Shown piece by piece: positions 49,192 through 58,626 of a DNA stretch of 58,626 nucleotides. The notes below the pieces were generated by a model that was not told where the DNA came from, ran no database searches, and worked only from the letters and a program-made list of their open reading frames with translations. Location of the stretch: positions 1-58,626 of the forward strand of contig JACOVG010000032.1 of NCBI GenBank assembly GCA_016177405.1. Direction: 5' to 3'. The position numbers and the translations under genes are program-made. The first letter of the stretch is position 1. Every line of letters starts with the position of its first letter. The DNA is from Candidatus Omnitrophota bacterium. Its GTDB lineage: Bacteria > Omnitrophota > Gorgyraeia > 1-14-0-20-64-10.

Positions 49192-49868
49192 CTTACCTCC
49201 TCTTGATTTGTCACGGCGTTTGTCTGTCCGGAAGCCAGTTGCTGGAGCGCGCTGGAGATGGCCCCCCGGCTGGAAATGTGCTGGACCGCGTCGTGGATGG
49301 CCTCGCCTACCAGTTGCCCGGTTGCTGCCGGGGCCGCGAAGGTGTTAATCCGGCGCTGAACCTGCCCAGCCACAGAATCCCGCTCGAGGACCTTGCCCTG
49401 GCTGTCGTAGAGAGTCCCGCCCAGGACAACCTTTGCGGTGGGGGGGTCCATCAGGGCGTCGAAAGATTCCACCGAGATGGATTGAATCGAGACGGCAAGC
49501 ACCCCCCGCGCGCCGTACTCGGCCGCCGCCCGCGCGAATGATTCGGGCGAGTCACCTGCGGAAACGTTCCCCAAGACTCCATTCATCTCTTGGTCATACA
49601 GCGCCACCACAAGCTCTCTCCCAACAAGCTGGGAGGGATCTTCATCCATCTTCAACTGCAAAGCGGAGATGGAGCCCAGCCGTTTTTTGTCCGCCCGCTC
49701 ATCCGAAGGGCGGGCCACCACCACCGTGATCGCTTTGGAACTGGGGCTGAAGGAATAGACGTCCGGCCCCTGCGGCAGCGTTGCCACCGCCGTCGCGCAC
49801 CCGGAAAGCAGTGCTGCCGTCGTGAACACCGTCAGAACTCTTGGCACGCTCTTCATGGATTGCCTCAT
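49188..49868 (-). CDS. lipoprotein of unknown function
   Basis: lipobox LSGC; SD GAGGAG. Confidence 0.7.
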   Translation of the reverse strand: MRQSMKSVPRVLTVFTTAALLSGCATAVATLPQGPDVYSFSPSSKAITVVVARPSDERADKKRLGSISALQLKMDEDPSQLVGRELVVALYDQEMNGVLGNVSAGDSPESFARAAAEYGARGVLAVSIQSISVESFDALMDPPTAKVVLGGTLYDSQGKVLERDSVAGQVQRRINTFAAPAATGQLVGEAIHDAVQHISSRGAISSALQQLASGQTNAVTNQEEVR

Positions 49869-51998: not shown

Positions 51999-52001
51999 TG
52001 G

Positions 52002-52433
52002 TTAAGCCTTTACCTTGTACGTGATCCAGAAAATATCCTCTTTAACCTGCTTGACTGAAGGATCGCTTGCTTTAAGCTCTTTGCGGGTGTCCTTCTGTTC
52101 CTTCTTGCAAAAGGGACAGTGTTTTGGTGCGCCGCGTGTCAACCAGTCTTCAGTCCTTATCAGGTGGCCTCCACATGAACTGCATGGAGGCAAAGATTCC
52201 AAGATTAGTTTCCACCCTTCGCTGTTCTTCAGGCCCTCTTTCCTACGATCCCAGACGGGATCATTAAACGCGTTATACCAGAAGAGCGCCTGACACCTCT
52301 CACATTCAAGGCAGGCTACGTCCGTGTAAAGAATGGTCGAATCAAAAGTAACCTCATGGGATTTGTCGCAATCTTGACACTGCCGAACCGCCTTGTAAGC
52401 GGTCCATTCTCTGCGATCAACCTCATATCCCAT
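52002..52433 (-). CDS. Cys-rich zinc-ribbon protein, candidate immunity protein
   Basis: CQDC, CERC, CSSC, CPFC; TGATG overlap with the toxin stop; visibly more AT-rich. Confidence 0.7.
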   Translation of the reverse strand: MGYEVDRREWTAYKAVRQCQDCDKSHEVTFDSTILYTDVACLECERCQALFWYNAFNDPVWDRRKEGLKNSEGWKLILESLPPCSSCGGHLIRTEDWLTRGAPKHCPFCKKEQKDTRKELKASDPSVKQVKEDIFWITYKVKA

Positions 52434-55400
52434 CAGGGTGCCACCTTATTGAATTCCTTGATCAATTCCTCTCGGAGTACAACCACATTATTAACCGACC
52501 CATTTATGTCGGAAGGGGCTACAATCTTCCCCAGATCTGATGCTCGAGTTGCCGTGTCCCCCAAAGATCTAGAAACTTGCTCGGCTGGCAGGGTGTCGAG
52601 GGTAATTCGCCTGCTGTCCTTGAGCGCAATTTCATAAACGTCGTACTCAGCCCCAGGGTTGCGTCTAAGAAATTCTGAGACTGCCACGTTCTTGTCTTTT
52701 GAAGTGTACAAGACCTTGGTATCGAGCGAATTAAACCGGCCTTCAGCCGTGCTGAAACGCATCGGATTAGAAGTGCCTTTTGGAACTGCCCGGTAGACAA
52801 CCTCTGTTGCCTCGTCGGCACTATGGACGGCACCCTTGACGACAGAGTTGCCGGCTTTAAATTCCCAGGCGGTGCGGGTGAGCTTGAGCTCGCCCTGACC
52901 CACATCATATACCTTGCTGCCGATGCGGAAGAAGTTTTTGATGGAACCCCAGACGCGATCCAGACTACGGGCTGCGGTGGGGACATCGCCCACGATGCCG
53001 GTGGCTTTGCTGGCGACCTGCAAAGATTTCCCAAGGCCTTTGGTGGCGAGACCCACCGCAGGAAACAGACCAAAAGCCCTTAGGCCATCTTGAAGCAGGT
53101 ACATTGTGGCAGCACCGTAGTGGCCTTCTGCTGCAGCTTGTTTGGCCTGCTGGATGCCGACGCCGATCCTTAAGTCGTCCCCGAAGAGATCTACCGCGGC
53201 GGCGATGGTATGCAGCGTTCCTCCCGCCACCCAATTGCCATCGTCTGCGAAGGAATCGCCCTGGGTCTTCAGCCAGTTGATTCCCTTTTCCATGGCGCGG
53301 CTTAAAGCGGTAGATGCCTGCTCCTTGCTGACGGTGAGGGTCGCCTGTTCCTGCTGGAGGCGTGCTTGCTCGGCCGGCAGGGCATCCGGATTTTCAATCA
53401 AGGTCTGGAGTGTCGGCCCGAATGATTTGAGCATTGCCTCGGCGTTCTCAGCCCCCACCAATTTGGTCAGCTCCTCTTTCACCACAGCGAGAAATTGAGG
53501 CGCTGCTTGTTGAGCAGCTGTTCTTTGCTCTGGGGTCGGGTCATGCAGCGGCGGAACTGCCGCTTCCATAGCCTGAGCCAGGGCATGGAGCTTCTCAGGA
53601 GAAAGGTCGCTGAAGCCCTGTGCCTGGATCTTGGCATCCACGATCTGGCCGCTGGAATAGATGATGGTTGGCCGCAGTGCGATTTCGCGAGTGATGTCGC
53701 CGTCCAGGAGGCCGAACTTGTAGTCCTCGGAGAGGTCCACCACCTGGCCTTCGATGAACCGCCCATCGGGGCTAACGCGAACGGTGTCGCTGCCTTCTCT
53801 GGGGCTGACGAAGTAGCGGGTCTTGCCGGTGGCGGTATCTCGCCCCTCGATCAGGACGATATTGCCGCCGTAGACGGTGTATTCCTCGGTGATGCCACTG
53901 GGCGTATTGACCAGCACCTTGCCGTTGACGAGTCCAAAGCGGCCTTGCTCGTCTAGGCCAAAGCTTTTGTCGTTCGGGTTCGGCGATGAAATCTCCTTGA
54001 CCAGCCCGCGCGTGGGATCGAAGTAGGAACGAGCCAGGACAGCGTCGGTCGTCGCGTCGAGATACAGCTTGCTGTTCTCTTTGAAAGTGACCTCGGTGGT
54101 AAGTCGGCCGTCCTCCAGGGTGACCGCCTTGGCGTTGCCCAGCAGGAAGTCGGCGATGCCGCCCAGCTTCCAGATGGACTCGATGGCGTCCCGCTGGAAG
54201 ATGCTGCTGGCGTAGGTTTCAAGGGCGGTGGTGATGCCACGCTCCCGGATGATGTTGGAGAAGTCGTTGATCTTGGCAAGGTAGGTCGCCTGCTGGACGG
54301 GGTTGTAGGGTGCGTTGGGGTCGTAGCCGGTGCCCGGGGTGGAGAAATTCAGGACGGACTTCTTGAGGGATTCCGAGACCCCCTTGAAAACGTTGCCCTC
54401 ATACTTAAAGGCGCCGGAGATGGCCCCTGAAATGACGTTGGCCGAGAGGGCCTGGGTAAAGGGATCCAAGCCGATCTCATCGCCCAAGAGATCTATACCG
54501 AGGCTGGTGGCTCCATGGAGCAGGCCGTCACTGATGGACTTTGTGATGTCTGTGGCTTTCCCGCCTGCGGTGCCGACGGTGACCGCGGATTTAATCGGCA
54601 TACCGGCCAATTGGGAGATTCGCGGGTCGAGGCCGATGGATTCGCCGAGTTTCTGGATGCCATAGAAGGCGAGCTCGCCGGCGAGGGTGGGGGCAAGCTG
54701 GGTCTTGAGGGTGGTGCCGAGGGCATCGAGACCAGGGGGGATCGGCTTCATAACCACCTTCCCTGCTGAGTCGTAGACGACGTTGCCGGCATCGTCCAGC
54801 TTGGGGACTTGGGTGCCTACGGTTAGGGAGCCCACGATGGAGCCGACCCCGATGGAGGCGATCCCGGCCAGGGCGGGGTCGAGGCCGGCCTTGACAAGGC
54901 CCAGTTGGGTGCCGGCCACAGCGGTGGAGGTGAGGGCGCTGGAATAATCAAAGCCAAGGTGGAATGACCCTCCCGAGAAACTCTGGACGCCGCCGGAGGC
55001 GAAGGAACCGGCGATGCCGGCGATGCCAGGATCAACCCCCAGGGCCTGGAGGCCGGTGGAGACACCAAGGTTGACGGCAGTCTGCAGGGCGAATTGACCC
55101 AGGCCTTGGAGGGAGAGGCCTCCGGAAAGGCCGGCCATCATCCCAATACCTTGGAAGAGGGTCTCAAAACCAAGGGCGAATTGGCCGCCAAGGAGGTAGG
55201 TGAGGCCTCCGAGGGCATGGCCGAGGCCGCTGACCATTGTTCCCAGGCCGTTGAAGATGAAGCCCAAGGGGCCCATGGCGTTGCCCAGGGCGGTAAAGGC
55301 AGCTCCGATCGTGTTAACGAGAGTGGCCAGGGCCCCGGTGATGAAGGAGATGGCGGTGGAGATGGCGGAGACGACCCCAACGGCCAGCTTGGCGAGGAAG

Positions 55401-58400
55401 ATAAAGAACATGAAGAAGAAGCTTCCGGTGATGCGCTGGGCTTCTGGGTCGGTCAGAACCTGGTAGGCGTGGGGAGGAGCGCGGGAAGAGAGGATGGCTC
55501 CCTGCCAGACCTGGAGGAACTCCGCTTGGGTCATGGTGAGGGTTTGGCCGGTGGGGCCGGCGTTGGGCTCCCGGTAGGTGACGGTGCCGTCGGCGGCAAT
55601 CACGGTCACCAGGATGTAGTGATTGCCGTTGATGTGAGCGATGACGGGAGAAGCGATTCCCGCTTGCGCGGGAATGACAAGGGCGCGTAAGTCCTCAAAG
55701 GAGACGCGGGAGGGGGTGGCGGAGGCGCCATGAAGCTTGGCGACGCGCTGGAGGGCGAAGAGGGACAGTTCCATGTCCCCGGTGGTCTTCGGGTTGATGG
55801 TGCCGGTCAGGATGTCCACAAGGAGGGTTTGGACAGCGAGGGTGGTGAAATCTGGCGATTGCTTCGTCCCGCCTTCGGCGCTCCTCGCAATGACCGCCTC
55901 GATGTATTCCTTCAAGGGCAGGAAGGCGGAGTAGCCGAAGTGGAGGGAGTTGGAGTCAAGCCAGGCCAGGATGCGGTCAATATCTGAAGCGGAAAGGGGG
56001 ACGATTTCGGAGGGGGTGAGGCCGAGGGAAGAGATGAGATTTCTCGCTTCGCTCGAAATGACGGAAGTATCGCCGGTGGCAATGACGACGTAATCCTGCA
56101 ACCAGGAGGCGACGCGGCGCTTGATCTCGGAGACGTCGGAGGCGCGGGGGGCGTAATCTGGCAGGACGCGGATTCGCTGGGTGAGATCGGCAAGGTCCAC
56201 CTTGGCCGAGGGATCCGAGCCATAGCGGCTGTAGAGGCGCTCCACCTCCTGGGTGACTTCCTGCTCGGAGGGATCCCGGCCGATCGTGTCCCGGTAGGCG
56301 CGGATCAGGATGGTGGTGAGCTCCTGGCGGAGAATCGCTTTGGCGAGCTCGACCTGCTTGACATGGATCTCGGTGAAGGCCTGGATGGTCTGGGACTCCA
56401 CCTCCTGGCGGACCGATTCCACCTGGGCGTTGAGCTGTCCCAGGGCCTCGGCGTATTGGTTGTCCAAGTTGGACAAGGCGTCTCGGACTTGATTCATCCC
56501 GGCGCGAATCTGGTCCATCGCTTGGGATTTGGCACTCTTGCCCGCCTTGCCCTTGGCTTTCATGGCTTCGACATCGTTGAGCTTGTGCTGGAGAGAAGCC
56601 TGTTGATCGGTGAGCTGGGCGCGGGCGGCAGAAGCTCGGTTGGCCAGGTCCTGGTAGGCAACTCCCTTCTGGCGGGCCAGCTCCTCCAGGGCCTGGGTGC
56701 GGCGCTGGATCACCTCGGCCTCGGCATTGGTGATCTGGTCGAAGATCTCCTGGCGAGCGCCGATCAGGGTGGTCTTGGTGAGGCGGCCGGCGGCATCGTA
56801 GTCAAAGGTGGTGGTTATGCGGCCGGAGGAATCCAGGGTCAGGATGGGGCGGCTCTCCTCGTACAGGGTGACCATGCCACTGGCAAAGGTCTGGGTGAGA
56901 AGCTGGCCTTCGGCGCCAAACTCCCGCTCGATGACGGCGTCATCCGGGAAGCCCTCGGTGAGGAGCTGTCCCTCTGGAAGGGCCAGCCGGGCCAGACGGT
57001 GGATGGTGACCTGGGCGCCGCGCTGTTCGTTGAAGGCGGACAGATCAGGCACCTGGATCTGAAGACTCTGCTCCCTGCCCTGCAGGTCTGTGTAGTGGAT
57101 CGTCTCGGGCTTGAGACTACGGAGGGTCTCGAGCTGGTCCTGGGCAAGGTCTTTGGCGTAGGAGACCTCCCAGCGGGTGCCGGATGGTTCTTCGATGGCG
57201 ATGAGGTTGTTGTCTGAATAGGTGCGGATCGCGCCGGAGGAATCGGTGATGCGGGTGAGAGATTGCTTCGCCCCACCCTCGGTGGGGCTCGCAATGACGT
57301 CAGAGTAACTGTAGGTGAAGGTTTCGCGGGGTTTGCCCTGGTAGGTGACTACGGCGCGGGAGAGGACGGGGCTGTGGTCACTGTGAAGCGAAGCCAAAGC
57401 AATCTCGTCTTGAGATTGCTTCGCGCCTTCGGCGCTCGCAATGACGGACTCCACTTCGCCTCCTCGCAATGACAAGGTGCCCTGCTCCACCAGGCGGCGC
57501 AGGGAGGCACGGTCGGCGGGGAGCTCCAAGGAGCGCAGCTGGGCGGGGTCGCTTAAGAGGAGGAGCTCTGCCGGGCCTTCGATGAGCTGGGCGTTGTCAA
57601 AGTAGGCCGAGGCCTCGAAGCCGTTCACCTTGATCCAAGCGTTGAAGTTGATGCTTCCGGTGGTGATGGTGTGGGTGATGGTGAGGAGGTGCCACTCGTT
57701 GTCCCCGGGATGAAAGGCAGAGAAGTCGTACTCGTTGGAGGAAAGGCCGATACGGGCGGCGCCCGGACGGTCGGACTTGACCCAGACCTCCAGGGTGAAG
57801 GTTCTTCCGGCAAGGGCCCGGACCTCCGGGGAGTAGGGGGGAAGGATGTCCTGGTAGATGAAGGAGTAGTCGCTTCCGTCGGAGCCGTTGGCCAGCTTGA
57901 GAGGCGGGGTGCCCAATTGAACGGAGGAGGTTTCCTGGCGGACATGGGACGGATCGGTTTCCTGGGAGACGGAGTTGCCGGAGCCGCCGCTCCATCTCCA
58001 GCCATCGGGGGCCTGCTGGCCTCCCTGGGACCAGCTTTCGAAGGAGGGGTCAGCCAGGGGATAGGGCGAGAGGGAGTCCGGCTTGGTCAGGTAGCGGCCA
58101 TCCGGGGTGGTTAAGCCCACCACCTGCCAGGGCTGGACCGAGGAAGCCCGCGCATAGTGGATGACGGCGCCGCTCGCGAGGGTTTGGGCGGCCCCAGCGG
58201 CAGTGGCGAGCGCCTCATTTAAGGGATCGGAATAACCGGCGGGGTCGGTGGTGTACTCGTAGGCGGTGACGGCGCCGTCGGGGTCGGTCTGGGAGATAAG
58301 CAGGCCCTCGCGGTAGCGCTTGGTGAGGCCGGTGGCAAGTTCCTTGATAACGGTTATTTCGCTGCTGTCCGCGTCGAACTCGTAGGCGTAGTCGTAAAGG

Positions 58401-58626
58401 AGTTGGGGGGCGGTGGGGTCGGGGTCATCGCGAGGCGAAGCCGAAGCAATCTGACCTTGCGAGATTGCTTCGTCGCCCTCGCCAACGCTCGGGCTCCTCG
58501 CAATGACGAGAGTTCCCTCCGTGATCAGTTGTCGGATGGAGGGTTCGTCCGAGGGAAGAAGGAGATGGGCCAGGGCCGGATGCTCGGCCAGGGTGGCGTA
58601 GACGGGGCGAGGAGGGGGCGGAGGAA
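52433..58626 (-). CDS. 3' part of a giant polymorphic-toxin-like protein (YD-like repeats, CBM-like, coiled coil, C39-like, hydrophobic segment, C-terminal RES domain); 5'-truncated by the window edge
   Basis: frame stays open from 58123 to the window end (manual translation); FDYDAAGRL and YREGLLISQTDPDG repeats; RES motifs VYR, GRFN, LYTS, SEF, APS, NNVVV. Confidence 0.82.
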   Translation of the reverse strand, partial: PPPPPRPVYATLAEHPALAHLLLPSDEPSIRQLITEGTLVIARSPSVGEGDEAISQGQIASASPRDDPDPTAPQLLYDYAYEFDADSSEITVIKELATGLTKRYREGLLISQTDPDGAVTAYEYTTDPAGYSDPLNEALATAAGAAQTLASGAVIHYARASSVQPWQVVGLTTPDGRYLTKPDSLSPYPLADPSFESWSQGGQQAPDGWRWSGGSGNSVSQETDPSHVRQETSSVQLGTPPLKLANGSDGSDYSFIYQDILPPYSPEVRALAGRTFTLEVWVKSDRPGAARIGLSSNEYDFSAFHPGDNEWHLLTITHTITTGSINFNAWIKVNGFEASAYFDNAQLIEGPAELLLLSDPAQLRSLELPADRASLRRLVEQGTLSLRGGEVESVIASAEGAKQSQDEIALASLHSDHSPVLSRAVVTYQGKPRETFTYSYSDVIASPTEGGAKQSLTRITDSSGAIRTYSDNNLIAIEEPSGTRWEVSYAKDLAQDQLETLRSLKPETIHYTDLQGREQSLQIQVPDLSAFNEQRGAQVTIHRLARLALPEGQLLTEGFPDDAVIEREFGAEGQLLTQTFASGMVTLYEESRPILTLDSSGRITTTFDYDAAGRLTKTTLIGARQEIFDQITNAEAEVIQRRTQALEELARQKGVAYQDLANRASAARAQLTDQQASLQHKLNDVEAMKAKGKAGKSAKSQAMDQIRAGMNQVRDALSNLDNQYAEALGQLNAQVESVRQEVESQTIQAFTEIHVKQVELAKAILRQELTTILIRAYRDTIGRDPSEQEVTQEVERLYSRYGSDPSAKVDLADLTQRIRVLPDYAPRASDVSEIKRRVASWLQDYVVIATGDTSVISSEARNLISSLGLTPSEIVPLSASDIDRILAWLDSNSLHFGYSAFLPLKEYIEAVIARSAEGGTKQSPDFTTLAVQTLLVDILTGTINPKTTGDMELSLFALQRVAKLHGASATPSRVSFEDLRALVIPAQAGIASPVIAHINGNHYILVTVIAADGTVTYREPNAGPTGQTLTMTQAEFLQVWQGAILSSRAPPHAYQVLTDPEAQRITGSFFFMFFIFLAKLAVGVVSAISTAISFITGALATLVNTIGAAFTALGNAMGPLGFIFNGLGTMVSGLGHALGGLTYLLGGQFALGFETLFQGIGMMAGLSGGLSLQGLGQFALQTAVNLGVSTGLQALGVDPGIAGIAGSFASGGVQSFSGGSFHLGFDYSSALTSTAVAGTQLGLVKAGLDPALAGIASIGVGSIVGSLTVGTQVPKLDDAGNVVYDSAGKVVMKPIPPGLDALGTTLKTQLAPTLAGELAFYGIQKLGESIGLDPRISQLAGMPIKSAVTVGTAGGKATDITKSISDGLLHGATSLGIDLLGDEIGLDPFTQALSANVISGAISGAFKYEGNVFKGVSESLKKSVLNFSTPGTGYDPNAPYNPVQQATYLAKINDFSNIIRERGITTALETYASSIFQRDAIESIWKLGGIADFLLGNAKAVTLEDGRLTTEVTFKENSKLYLDATTDAVLARSYFDPTRGLVKEISSPNPNDKSFGLDEQGRFGLVNGKVLVNTPSGITEEYTVYGGNIVLIEGRDTATGKTRYFVSPREGSDTVRVSPDGRFIEGQVVDLSEDYKFGLLDGDITREIALRPTIIYSSGQIVDAKIQAQGFSDLSPEKLHALAQAMEAAVPPLHDPTPEQRTAAQQAAPQFLAVVKEELTKLVGAENAEAMLKSFGPTLQTLIENPDALPAEQARLQQEQATLTVSKEQASTALSRAMEKGINWLKTQGDSFADDGNWVAGGTLHTIAAAVDLFGDDLRIGVGIQQAKQAAAEGHYGAATMYLLQDGLRAFGLFPAVGLATKGLGKSLQVASKATGIVGDVPTAARSLDRVWGSIKNFFRIGSKVYDVGQGELKLTRTAWEFKAGNSVVKGAVHSADEATEVVYRAVPKGTSNPMRFSTAEGRFNSLDTKVLYTSKDKNVAVSEFLRRNPGAEYDVYEIALKDSRRITLDTLPAEQVSRSLGDTATRASDLGKIVAPSDINGSVNNVVVLREELIKEFNKVAP
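55655..55678 (-). repeat. in-frame palindromic element GTCATTCCCGCGCAAGCGGGAATC
   Basis: ATTCCC-N8-GGGAAT core; encodes VIPAQAGI. Confidence 0.75.
55857..55894 (-). repeat. in-frame palindromic element GTCATTGCGAG...CGAAGCAATC
   Basis: encodes VIARSAEGGTKQS. Confidence 0.8.
56036..56062 (-). repeat. in-frame palindromic element GTCATTTCGAGCGAAGCGAGAAATCTC
   Basis: encodes VISSEARNL. Confidence 0.75.
57259..57298 (-). repeat. in-frame palindromic element GTCATTGCGAGCCCCACCGAGGGTGGGGCGAAGCAATCTC
   Basis: encodes VIASPTEGGAKQS. Confidence 0.82.
57377..57473. repeat. inverted doublet of GTCA palindromic elements plus a partial third copy
   Basis: 57377-57406 (+, degenerate), 57412-57445 (-), 57454-57473 (-, partial). 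Confidence 0.8.
58424..58507. repeat. inverted doublet of GTCA palindromic elements
   Basis: GTCATCGCGAGGCGAAGCCGAAGCAATCT (58424-58452, +) facing GTCATTGCGAGGAGCCCGAGCGTTGGCGAGGGCGACGAAGCAATCTC (58461-58507, -). Confidence 0.82.

What the first reader, a model, noticed from the sequence alone, without database searches (positions are those of the whole stretch)
55655..58507. Family of GTCATT palindromic elements inserted in frame inside the giant gene
Seen: about nine copies in three sub-types (GTCATTGCGAG..CGAAGCAATC, GTCATTCCCGC..GCGGGAATC, GTCATTTCGAGC..GAAATC), as singlets and inverted doublets. All keep the frame, and the sense copies are mostly read as V-I-x peptides (VIARSAEGGTKQS, VIASPTEGGAKQS, VIPAQAGI, VISSEARNL). 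I saw none in the other 52 kb. Two lie in predicted loops of the C39-like domain. Known: REP-like elements are usually intergenic; Rickettsia palindromic elements are the precedent for coding insertion, and ATTCCC-N8-GGGAAT is the Neisseria dRS3 core. Inference: a mobile palindrome family colonising and diversifying a giant toxin, or serving as recombination or mRNA-structure sites.
Basis: partly seen in the sequence, partly recalled or inferred. Interest (0 to 1): 0.82.

Follow-up and report, generated by a model that had tools for sequence, protein, structure and literature searches.

The report
Known hairpin repeats translated inside giant gene
The GTCATT palindromes are real copies of an already described, very widespread family of small hairpin-forming DNA repeats, which in this uncultured groundwater bacterium normally sit between genes but have also settled, in frame, in loops of one giant toxin-like gene and of several housekeeping genes.

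Summary
Ten units (seven intact, three decayed) lie at 55655-58507 inside a 2063-codon open frame on the minus strand, and no other unit lies in the window.

They belong to a dispersed family, GTCAT + hairpin + ATC, with 136 units in the 1.70-Mb Omnitrophota genome against 1 in the reversed-genome control. About four fifths of the sites are intergenic.

The kind is known. These are CGTC-tagged REPs (Di Nocera 2013), which are also the NTS/SRM hairpins that Ssn GIY-YIG single-strand nucleases recognise (Chenal 2025). The copy at 55655-55678 equals the 24-nt core of the Neisseria NTS consensus.

Orthologues show that the peptides are 6-12-residue insertions in variable loops. tgt and der of the same genome carry in-frame copies too, as Rickettsia genes carry RPEs.

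- **Unusual load:** this gene holds 10 units, plus 3 in its likely N-terminal fragment on contig C9. The other 29 ORFs of 1500 aa or more hold none.
- **Recurring loops:** distant homologues carry different subtypes at the same loops.
- **No partner enzyme found:** this 93%-complete genome has no Ssn-type gene and no RAYT, whereas relatives have unit-flanked GIY-YIG genes.

The scan has noted this family in frame in other genomes before. Verdict: a new member of a known kind, of moderate interest.

The parts
52433..58624 (-). Giant ORF (2063 codons, 5' end runs off the contig). It has RHS repeats, a C39-like domain (residues 949-1046) and a possible C-terminal RES domain that scores below the Pfam cut-off.
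   Evidence: Homologues in 89 of 300 other Omnitrophota genomes sampled (90 of 301 with this genome).
55655..55678 (-). Short unit GTCATTCCCGCGCAAGCGGGAATC, read as VIPAQAGI. It is identical to the 24-nt core of the published Neisseria NTS consensus.
   Evidence: About 6 residues longer than most homologues. Loop 125-134 of the model.
55857..55894 (-). Long unit (GTCATTGCGAG..inner hairpin..CGAAGCAATC), read as VIARSAEGGTKQS.
   Evidence: 6-9 residue insertion against 9 of 11 homologues in A1. Helix end plus loop in the model.
56038..56062 (-). 25-nt unit GTCATTTCGAGCGAAGCGAGAAATC, read as VISSEARNL.
   Evidence: Homologues have a segment of similar length here, and P0003 and P0005 carry VIASDA.AKQS at the same site.
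56063..56086 (-). Decayed or truncated unit head (GTCATTGCC...), read as VIATGDTS. It accounts for the 7-residue excess over homologues.
57261..57298 (-). Long unit with a strong predicted stem (-22.1 kcal/mol), read as VIASPTEGGAKQS.
   Evidence: Clean 10-12 residue insertion against 8 of the 9 homologues that align there; P0006 carries a shorter insert of its own there. The closest relative G101 also lacks it.
57377..57404 (+). Decayed unit in the opposite orientation, read as EIALASLHSD. It is the left half of an inverted doublet.
   Evidence: (family D3)
57414..57445 (-). Long unit read as VIASAEGAKQS. It is the right half of the doublet.
57446..57473 (-). Truncated unit (head GTCATTGCGAGG, no tail), read in another phase as SLRGGEVES.
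58424..58451 (+). Unit GTCATCGCGAGGCGAAGCCGAAGCAATC in the opposite orientation, read as QIASASPRDD. It is the left half of an inverted doublet.
58463..58507 (-). 45-nt long unit read as VIARSPSVGEGDEAIS. It is the right half of the doublet.
   Evidence: The whole 28-residue doublet is absent from P0005 and P0010, the two homologues that align here.

Best explanation
The elements are members of the CGTC-tagged REP superfamily, which is the same thing as the NTS-like 'Ssn-related motifs' (SRM).

**Anatomy.** Each unit is a short DNA hairpin with an unpaired (C/T)GTC tag, a stem that starts with AT, and a C after the stem. The long sub-type has a 5-bp outer stem (ATTGC/GCAAT, with variants ATCGC/GCGAT, ATCTC/GAGAT and ATTTC/GAAAT), an internal loop and a hypervariable inner hairpin.

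**Where they sit.** In this Omnitrophota genome they lie mainly between genes, often as tail-to-tail pairs of two different units. Copies that landed inside genes survive only where the added length is a multiple of three, the reading frame has no stop, and the peptide falls in a tolerant loop or linker. The peptides (VIAS..KQS, VIPAQAGI and the like) are therefore passengers, not functional modules.

**Why this gene.** The giant RHS/C39-like gene has collected many copies of different ages, from strongly pairing to decayed. I infer that this is because it is long, rich in variable linkers and dispensable.

**Shown:** family membership by sequence, genome-wide spread, indel status against orthologues, loop positions, in-frame copies in housekeeping genes, and unit-flanked GIY-YIG genes in relatives.

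**Inferred:** that spread happens through single-stranded hairpin DNA handled by an Ssn-type nuclease (or another enzyme acting in trans), and that the peptides are neutral.
For: - **Family size:** 136 units in the genome against 1 in the reversed genome. GTCATTGCGAG occurs 33 times and GTCATTCCCGC 18 times.
- **Match to published motif:** 12 copies, including 55655-55678, match the 24-nt NTS core of PMC11893778 exactly.
- **Tag:** the base before GTC is C in 65 and T in 41 of 136 units, as PMC3733652 describes for the CGTC/TGTC tags.
- **Location:** of 79 sites, 61 lie between genes, 1 at a contig edge and 17 deep in crude ORFs.
- **Indels against orthologues:**
  - VIASPTEGGAKQ is missing from 8 of the 9 homologues that align there (P0006 has a shorter insert of its own) and from the closest relative G101.
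  - VIARSAEGGTKQS and VIPAQAGI lie in variable-length loops.
  - The N-terminal doublet is absent from P0005 and P0010.
- **Structure:** the AF2 model places two units in a helix end plus loop and in a loop.
- **Housekeeping genes:** tgt has a 24-residue insertion equal to a 72-nt doublet. der has about 14 extra residues (SFPRKRES...) in its inter-domain linker. cobQ, leuS and lnt carry units between Pfam domains.
- **Relatives:** five relatives have 17-75 pattern matches each and 0 in controls, each with its own dominant sub-type.
- **Nuclease link:** in relatives, 5 of 17 small GIY-YIG loci have units within about 100 nt. One (L079) is flanked on both sides by the GTCATTGCGAG..CGAAGCAATC type.
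- **Assembly:** contigs of 4 runs bridge the units.
Against: - **Uneven load.** The giant gene holds 5 finder-grade units (10 by eye), while the other 29 ORFs of 1500 aa or more hold none. Simple 'long gene, many loops' tolerance does not predict this.
- **Phase bias.** Seven of the eight sense heads in this part of the gene are in the same phase (V-I), and so are the two sense units of the C9 fragment. This needs selection on the peptide or copying within the gene.
- **Recurring loops.** Distant homologues carry different sub-types at the same loops. At loop C, G101 has IIASGAKQS and G042 has VIASEVKQS. At loop B, G042 has VIASPEGAWQS. At the VISSEARNL site, P0003 and P0005 have VIASDA.AKQS. 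This could mean targeting or long maintenance.
- **No mobilising enzyme in this genome.** There is no Y1/RAYT. The only small GIY-YIG gene (C31) is UPF0213-like, has no flanking units, and is only 33-35% identical to the unit-flanked subgroup of relatives.
- **Published search pattern.** The SRM regex matches only 11 of 136 units and none in the giant gene.
- **No sign of recent movement.** No unit-less allele appears in the contigs laid, although contigs drop rare variants.
Confidence: 0.78

Rival explanations
1. The pile-up in this one gene is functional at the DNA level. The units would act as single-strand cleavage or recombination-control marks, as NTS clusters around surface genes do in Neisseria, and would limit or steer recombination of a polymorphic-toxin-like gene. 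Gene conversion from other copies would keep them at the same loops.
For: - Units are found in this gene only among 30 ORFs of 1500 aa or more.
- The likely N-terminal fragment on C9 holds 3 more.
- The same loops are occupied by different sub-types in G101, G042, P0003 and P0005.
- 5 of 14 database homologues carry unit-type peptides.
- PMC11893778 (discussion read) reports NTS clusters next to membrane and host-interaction genes, and an effect of SsnA on transformation.
Against: - No Ssn-type gene was found in this genome.
- Only 2 of 29 homologous loci from the less biased genome search carry units.
- The database homologues were collected by shared words, which may favour unit-bearing proteins.
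- The units lie in the N-terminal and core part, not at the toxin-domain junction.
- tgt and der carry units too.
Confidence: 0.13
2. The units act as RNA hairpins within the mRNA, for stability, or to pause translation at domain borders so as to help a giant protein fold.
For: The units sit at linkers and domain edges. PMC3733652 (sections read) argues that many intergenic REPs are transcribed and work as RNA.
Against: - Both orientations occur in the gene.
- Decayed copies persist.
- No Rfam family matches.
- The other 29 large ORFs have none.
- No RNA data exist.
Confidence: 0.06
3. The peptides themselves are selected, for example as flexible linkers or processing sites, and the palindromes are a by-product.
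For: There is a phase bias towards V-I-A-S / I-A-S readings in both orientations.
Against: - The same DNA units are mostly intergenic.
- They are read in other phases in der (SFPRKRES) and at 57446-57473.
- Inner hairpins vary freely while their pairing is kept.
Confidence: 0.02
4. The units are an assembly artefact or a chance occurrence.
For: Both contigs that hold parts of the gene end inside it. Logan unitigs break at the units.
Against: Contigs of 4 runs bridge several units with 0 differences (one study, possibly the source of this DNA). 0 of 100 shuffles reach the motif count. The reversed-genome control gives 1 against 136.
Confidence: 0.01

Closest known systems
CGTC-tagged REPs, family CGTC-1 and relatives (Di Nocera, De Gregorio & Rocco 2013, PMC3733652; abstract and sections 6, 8, 14 and 15 read)
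   Same: - Unpaired CGTC/TGTC tag.
- Stem beginning with A-T pairs.
- 4-nt loop in the short type.
- Frequent dimers of unlike units.
- Mostly intergenic between co-directional genes.
- Some copies inside ORFs encoding extra residues.
- No dedicated transposase known.
   Different: - The long sub-type has a 5-bp outer stem, an internal loop and a variable inner hairpin, not the 8-9 bp stem with a 4-5 nt loop.
- The host is Omnitrophota. The sections I read name no Omnitrophota host; the paper reports these repeats in five phyla, which are listed in a figure I could not see.
- Ten units sit in one ORF, whereas the paper reports one or two insertions per ORF and clusters encoding 43-82 residues.
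Neisseria NTS / Ssn-related motifs with SsnA GIY-YIG ssDNA nucleases (Chenal et al. 2025, PMC11893778; abstract and sections 6, 7, 8, 10, 12 and 17 read)
   Same: The short unit equals the 24-nt core of the NTS consensus. In related Omnitrophota, small single-domain GIY-YIG genes are flanked by these units.
   Different: - No Ssn-type gene was found in this genome.
- About a fifth of sites lie inside ORFs here, against 2% reported for N. meningitidis.
- The published SRM pattern misses most units.
- Cleavage is untested.
Rickettsia palindromic elements (RPE). By PMC3733652, RPE-6 and RPE-4 are CGTC-1 and CGTC-4 repeats.
   Same: Palindromic repeats fixed in frame in protein-coding genes, including housekeeping genes, and translated as extra loop peptides.
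   Different: The host is a free-living or epibiotic groundwater Omnitrophota bacterium, not an obligate intracellular alpha-proteobacterium. The units are much shorter than RPE-1 (size recalled, not checked here). No expression data exist here.
REPIN/RAYT systems (GTAG-tagged REPs)
   Same: Hairpin repeats, often in inverted pairs, dispersed between genes.
   Different: The tag is GTC, not GTAG. No Y1 transposase (PF01797) is present in the genome.

Membership tests
CGTC-tagged REP superfamily (PMC3733652) | Unpaired terminal CGTC motif (TGTC or CCTC in many copies) | tested here: met
   The base before GTC is C in 65, T in 41, G in 25 and A in 5 of 136 units. In the giant gene the 8 sense heads are preceded by C (5), T (2) and G (1).
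CGTC-tagged REP superfamily (PMC3733652) | Stem of 8-9 bp starting with complementary A-T in positions 1 and 2, and a loop of 4-5 nt | tested here: inconclusive
   Met by the 55 units of 24 nt, such as ATTCCCGC-GAAA-GCGGGAAT. The long sub-type keeps the AT start but has a 5-bp outer stem, an internal loop and a nested variable hairpin.
CGTC-tagged REP superfamily (PMC3733652) | Dispersed and mostly intergenic, frequently in dimers | tested here: met
   79 sites: 35 doublets; 61 between genes, 1 at a contig edge and 17 deep in crude ORFs.
NTS / Ssn-related motif (PMC11893778) | Match to the NTS consensus CGTCATTCCCGCGMAVGCGGGAATCYRG | tested here: met
   The 24-nt core is exact in 12 copies, including 55655-55678. 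The full 28-nt consensus is exact in 1 copy, on C2. This applies to the short type only.
NTS / Ssn-related motif (PMC11893778) | Match to the published degenerate SRM search pattern | tested here: not met
   23 matches in the genome against 8 in the reversed genome. Only 11 of my 136 units are matched, and none on this contig. The pattern allows loops of at most 5 nt and fixes the 3' flank.
NTS / Ssn-related motif (PMC11893778) | Association with a single-domain GIY-YIG (Ssn, cd10448) gene, typically flanked by the motif | tested here: inconclusive
   - **This genome:** one small GIY-YIG gene (C31), UPF0213-like, with no units nearby. None of its 29 best homologues in relatives has units within 1.5 kb. 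tblastn with the unit-flanked subgroup finds nothing else.
- **Relatives:** 5 of 17 small GIY-YIG loci have units within about 100 nt.
- **Limit:** assignment to cd10448 could not be run with these tools.
NTS / Ssn-related motif (PMC11893778) | Strand-specific binding and cleavage as ssDNA by the cognate Ssn | not testable with these tools
   This needs a biochemical assay.
Rickettsia palindromic elements (behaviour, not sequence family) | In-frame presence in protein-coding genes as an insertion against orthologues, at tolerated surface positions | tested here: met
REPIN/RAYT | GTAG tag and an associated Y1 (RAYT) transposase | tested here: not met
   No PF01797 match in the genome, which is 93.4% complete. 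The tag is GTC, not GTAG.

The most novel reading that the evidence does not exclude
The RHS/C39-like giant gene family of Omnitrophota is a preferred, long-standing host of Ssn-type hairpins. On this reading the units are kept at the same protein loops across genera, by targeted re-insertion or by gene conversion, because they mark the gene for single-strand cleavage or recombination control. That would be an in-gene counterpart of the NTS clusters around Neisseria surface genes. The V-I-A-S reading phase would then be the price paid to keep DNA signals inside a coding sequence.
Probability: 0.12. Interest if true: 0.65.

Novelty: new member of a known kind. Interest (0 to 1): 0.36.

Why it matters
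- **Wider host range.** It extends the CGTC-REP / Ssn-motif family, including its Rickettsia-like habit of being translated inside genes, to Omnitrophota. It also shows that one 24-nt core is shared between Neisseria and a groundwater candidate phylum.
- **A natural test case.** One gene holds about a dozen units of different ages, in both orientations. With it one can ask whether these hairpins are mere passengers or influence recombination of polymorphic-toxin-like genes.
- **Practical warning.** Such units break assemblies inside genes: both contigs that hold parts of this gene end within it. They also add spurious 'motifs' to protein alignments.

Tried and rejected
- **Rfam:** a search of 52000-58626 at E<=1 found no family.
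- **RAYT/Y1 transposase:** none in the genome.
- **The small GIY-YIG gene on C31:**
  - NCBIfam gave no match.
  - Its upstream hairpin repeats occur only twice in the genome, so they are not part of the family.
  - Its closest homologues in 29 relatives' loci have no units.
- **Genes flanked by units elsewhere in the genome:** only housekeeping genes (hisG, a surA-like gene, maf, serS) and ORFs without Pfam hits. No nuclease or transposase appeared.
- **Sequencing runs:** no RNA holder is listed. The contigs laid show no unit-less allele and no joints, but contigs drop rare variants, so this is not evidence of absence.
- **Published SRM regex:** it captures few of the units.
- **Literature searches:** 'Omnitrophota' with 'palindromic' returned 10 papers, of which 9 were listed. 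None is about such repeats, judging by title and abstract start. 'Repetitive extragenic palindrom' with 'intragenic' and 'Rhs' returned 1 unrelated paper. I therefore found no printed report of these repeats in Omnitrophota or inside Rhs-type genes in that library. Subscription journals and the supplementary tables of both key papers were not seen.
- **Gene calls:** my ORF caller is crude, so genic and intergenic counts are approximate.

Full report
**What is there.** The window is a whole contig (C28) of a 1.70-Mb, 35-contig, 62% G+C genome that is 93.4% complete. Earlier notes of this scan, and the names attached to the homologues, place it in Omnitrophota.

Positions 52433-58624 on the minus strand form one open frame of 2063 codons that runs off the contig end. 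Pfam finds RHS repeats, a Peptidase_C39 match at residues 949-1046, and a RES domain below its cut-off.

Inside the 5' 3 kb I find ten units of the form GTCAT + hairpin + ATC. Seven are intact and three are decayed or truncated. Eight have the head on the coding strand and two are inverted, and they form two inverted clusters and several singlets.

**Is it more than chance?**
- GTCATTGCGAG with up to one mismatch has 8 matches in the window against 1.07 expected, and 0 of 100 shuffles reach 8.
- The exact 11-mer occurs 33 times in the genome.
- A unit finder of my own requires GTCAT, a perfect 5-bp outer stem, a closing C and a fold energy of -8 kcal/mol or lower. It finds 136 units in the genome and 1 in the reversed genome.
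- On this contig, all 5 units it reports lie in 55655-58507.
- Logan contigs from four runs bridge the units without any difference. Those runs come from one study that may be the source of the assembly. Short unitigs break exactly at the units, as repeats make them do.

**What kind of thing it is.** Notes from earlier sessions of this scan pointed me to two papers, which I then read in part.

Di Nocera et al. 2013 (PMC3733652; abstract and sections 6, 8, 14 and 15) define CGTC-tagged REPs. These are small palindromes with an unpaired CGTC/TGTC end, stems that begin with A-T pairs and loops of 4-5 nt. They form frequent dimers, have no known transposase, and some copies lie inside ORFs. The authors equate CGTC-1 with Neisseria dRS3 and with RPE-6 of Rickettsia conorii.

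Chenal et al. 2025 (PMC11893778; abstract and sections 6, 7, 8, 10, 12 and 17) show that the oriented form of dRS3, the NTS, is bound as single-stranded DNA by SsnA. SsnA is a 94-residue GIY-YIG nuclease that cuts just upstream of the NTS. Related motifs (SRM) flank ssn genes in many phyla.

Tested here:
- Twelve copies in this genome, among them 55655-55678, equal the 24-nt core of the NTS consensus. One copy equals the full 28-nt consensus.
- The base before GTC is C or T in 106 of 136 units.
- The long sub-type departs from the published shape. It keeps the tag and the AT start but has a 5-bp outer stem with matching changes on both sides (ATTGC/GCAAT, ATCGC/GCGAT, ATCTC/GAGAT, ATTTC/GAAAT), an internal loop and a freely varying inner hairpin.
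- The published degenerate SRM pattern matches only 11 of my 136 units and none in the giant gene.

**Are the copies in the gene insertions?** I aligned the protein with database homologues and with genes taken from 29 relatives' genomes.
- VIASPTEGGAKQ is a clean 10-12-residue insertion. It is absent from 8 of the 9 homologues that align there, and P0006 has a shorter insert of its own at that point. It is also absent from the closest relative, G101 (same family, 54% identity).
- VIARSAEGGTKQS (6-9 residues) and VIPAQAGI (about 6 residues) lie where length varies between conserved blocks.
- The 28-residue N-terminal doublet is missing from the two homologues that align there.
- An AlphaFold2 model of residues 860-1065 (12-row alignment, pLDDT 87, pTM 0.86) puts VIARSAEGGTKQS at the end of a helix and the following loop, and VIPAQAGI in a loop. 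Both stretches have locally lower confidence.
- VISSEARNL is the exception. Homologues have a segment of similar length there, and only the adjacent decayed head (VIATGDTS) is extra. That site is therefore old.

**It is not special to this gene.** With a crude ORF caller, the 79 unit sites divide as follows:

| Site context | Sites |
|---|---|
| Between co-directional genes | 50 |
| Between convergent genes | 7 |
| Between divergent genes | 4 |
| At a contig edge | 1 |
| Deep inside ORFs | 17 |

Several of the in-ORF cases are housekeeping genes:
- tgt carries a 72-nt doublet that shows as a 24-residue gap-free insertion against solved TGT structures.
- der carries about 14 extra residues (SFPRKRES...) in the linker between its two GTPase domains.
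- cobQ, leuS and lnt carry units between Pfam domains.

This is the behaviour described for Rickettsia RPEs and for intragenic REPs in PMC3733652.

**What is unusual.**
1. *Load.* Among the 30 ORFs of 1500 aa or more in this genome, only this one carries units. A 587-codon ORF at the end of contig C9 is the N-terminus of the same gene or of a paralogue. It is 47% identical to residues 15-449 of P0005 and P0010, the same homologues that match the start of the C28 frame. It carries three more units.
2. *Phase.* Seven of the eight sense heads in C28, and both sense units in C9, start in the same codon phase (V-I). The inverted ones read I-A-S. Elsewhere other phases occur.
3. *Recurrence at the same loops.*
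   - Where this genome has the short unit, G101 has a long-type unit with a mutated tag (IIASGAKQS) and G042 has another long-type unit (VIASEVKQS).
   - At the VIARSAEGGTKQS loop, G042 has VIASPEGAWQS.
   - At the VISSEARNL site, P0003 and P0005 have VIASDA.AKQS.
   - Five of 14 database homologues carry unit-type peptides. That search collects candidates by shared words, which may favour them.
   - In the less biased genome search, only 2 of 29 loci carry units.

**The enzyme question.** The genome has no Y1/RAYT match and two GIY-YIG matches. One lies in an 819-codon frame, which I take to be uvrC but did not check. The other is an 81-residue single-domain protein on C31.
- The C31 protein resembles UPF0213 proteins (1zg2, E 1e-16).
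- It has no units nearby.
- None of its 29 best homologues in other Omnitrophota has units within 1.5 kb.

In five relatives, by contrast, 5 of 17 small GIY-YIG loci have units within about 100 nt. One (L079, G042) is flanked on both sides by inverted GTCATTGCGAG..CGAAGCAATC units. These five proteins form a subgroup only 33-35% identical to the C31 protein. tblastn with them finds nothing else in this genome.

The same unit family is present in all five relatives (17-75 matches, 0 in controls), each with its own dominant sub-type. So the link between the units and Ssn-like genes holds in the phylum, but this genome's units have no identified partner in the assembled 93%.

**Most likely mechanism.**
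- *Shown:* the units are hairpin repeats of the CGTC/SRM family, they turn over between lineages, and they are fixed in frame at tolerant positions.
- *Inferred:* new copies arise through a single-stranded hairpin intermediate handled by an Ssn-type nuclease or another enzyme acting in trans. Inside genes, selection keeps only stop-free copies whose length is a multiple of three, in loops. The resulting peptides are passengers.
- The range from strongly pairing stems (57261-57298, -22 kcal/mol) to decayed copies (56063-86, 57377-404, 57446-73) suggests accumulation over time.
- The concentration in this gene, the phase bias and the loop recurrence are not fully explained by this model. They keep open a locus-specific DNA-level role, to which I give about one chance in eight.

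**Verdict.** It is not a toxin-specific system, and no diversifying role is shown. The kind is already described, and this scan has met it in frame in other Omnitrophota and Patescibacteria genomes. The novelty is limited to the host group, the long nested sub-type, and the exceptional load and loop recurrence in one giant gene.

Noticed in passing
G000 contig C9:31105-32865 (locus L002 2106-3866): A 587-codon ORF with an N-terminal hydrophobic segment and RHS repeats runs off the end of C9. It matches residues 15-449 of P0005 and P0010, so it is probably the missing N-terminus of the window's giant gene. Both contigs break inside the gene, and this fragment carries three more units.
   Followed up: partly
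G000 contig C31, about 49620-49760 (locus L012 1800-1940): Two direct repeats of about 78 nt, each with a GTC-tagged hairpin of a different sequence, lie between the only small GIY-YIG gene and a tRNA-like stretch. There are only two copies in the genome.
   Followed up: partly
G000 contig C17:23723-28339 (locus L074): Four consecutive ORFs (227, 304, 343 and 668 aa) have no Pfam match, and each has a unit at its 5' edge.
   Followed up: partly
G000 contig C18:74408-74605 (locus L077): Five units of four sub-types are packed into 200 nt between two genes, a BIME-like cluster.
   Followed up: no
window 55430-56047 (alignment A1): The C39-like domain has no invariant cysteine among 12 homologues. 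The invariant residues include His, Phe-Gly and Ser-Ala-Phe. It may therefore be a non-catalytic C39-like domain.
   Followed up: no
G000 contig C7:45921-49241 (locus L001): CobQ domains and a TonB-dependent receptor (Plug plus barrel) lie in one open frame, with a unit doublet between the two CobQ domains.
   Followed up: no
window 52433-52800 (C-terminus of the giant ORF): The RES-domain match at residues 1943-2039 scores 20.6 bits, below the Pfam cut-off of 23.2. The toxin assignment of the C-terminus is therefore only tentative.
   Followed up: no
301 Omnitrophota genomes sampled: Small GIY-YIG genes related to the C31 gene are found in 271 of 301 genomes sampled, often in several copies (up to 10 per genome).
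   Followed up: partly
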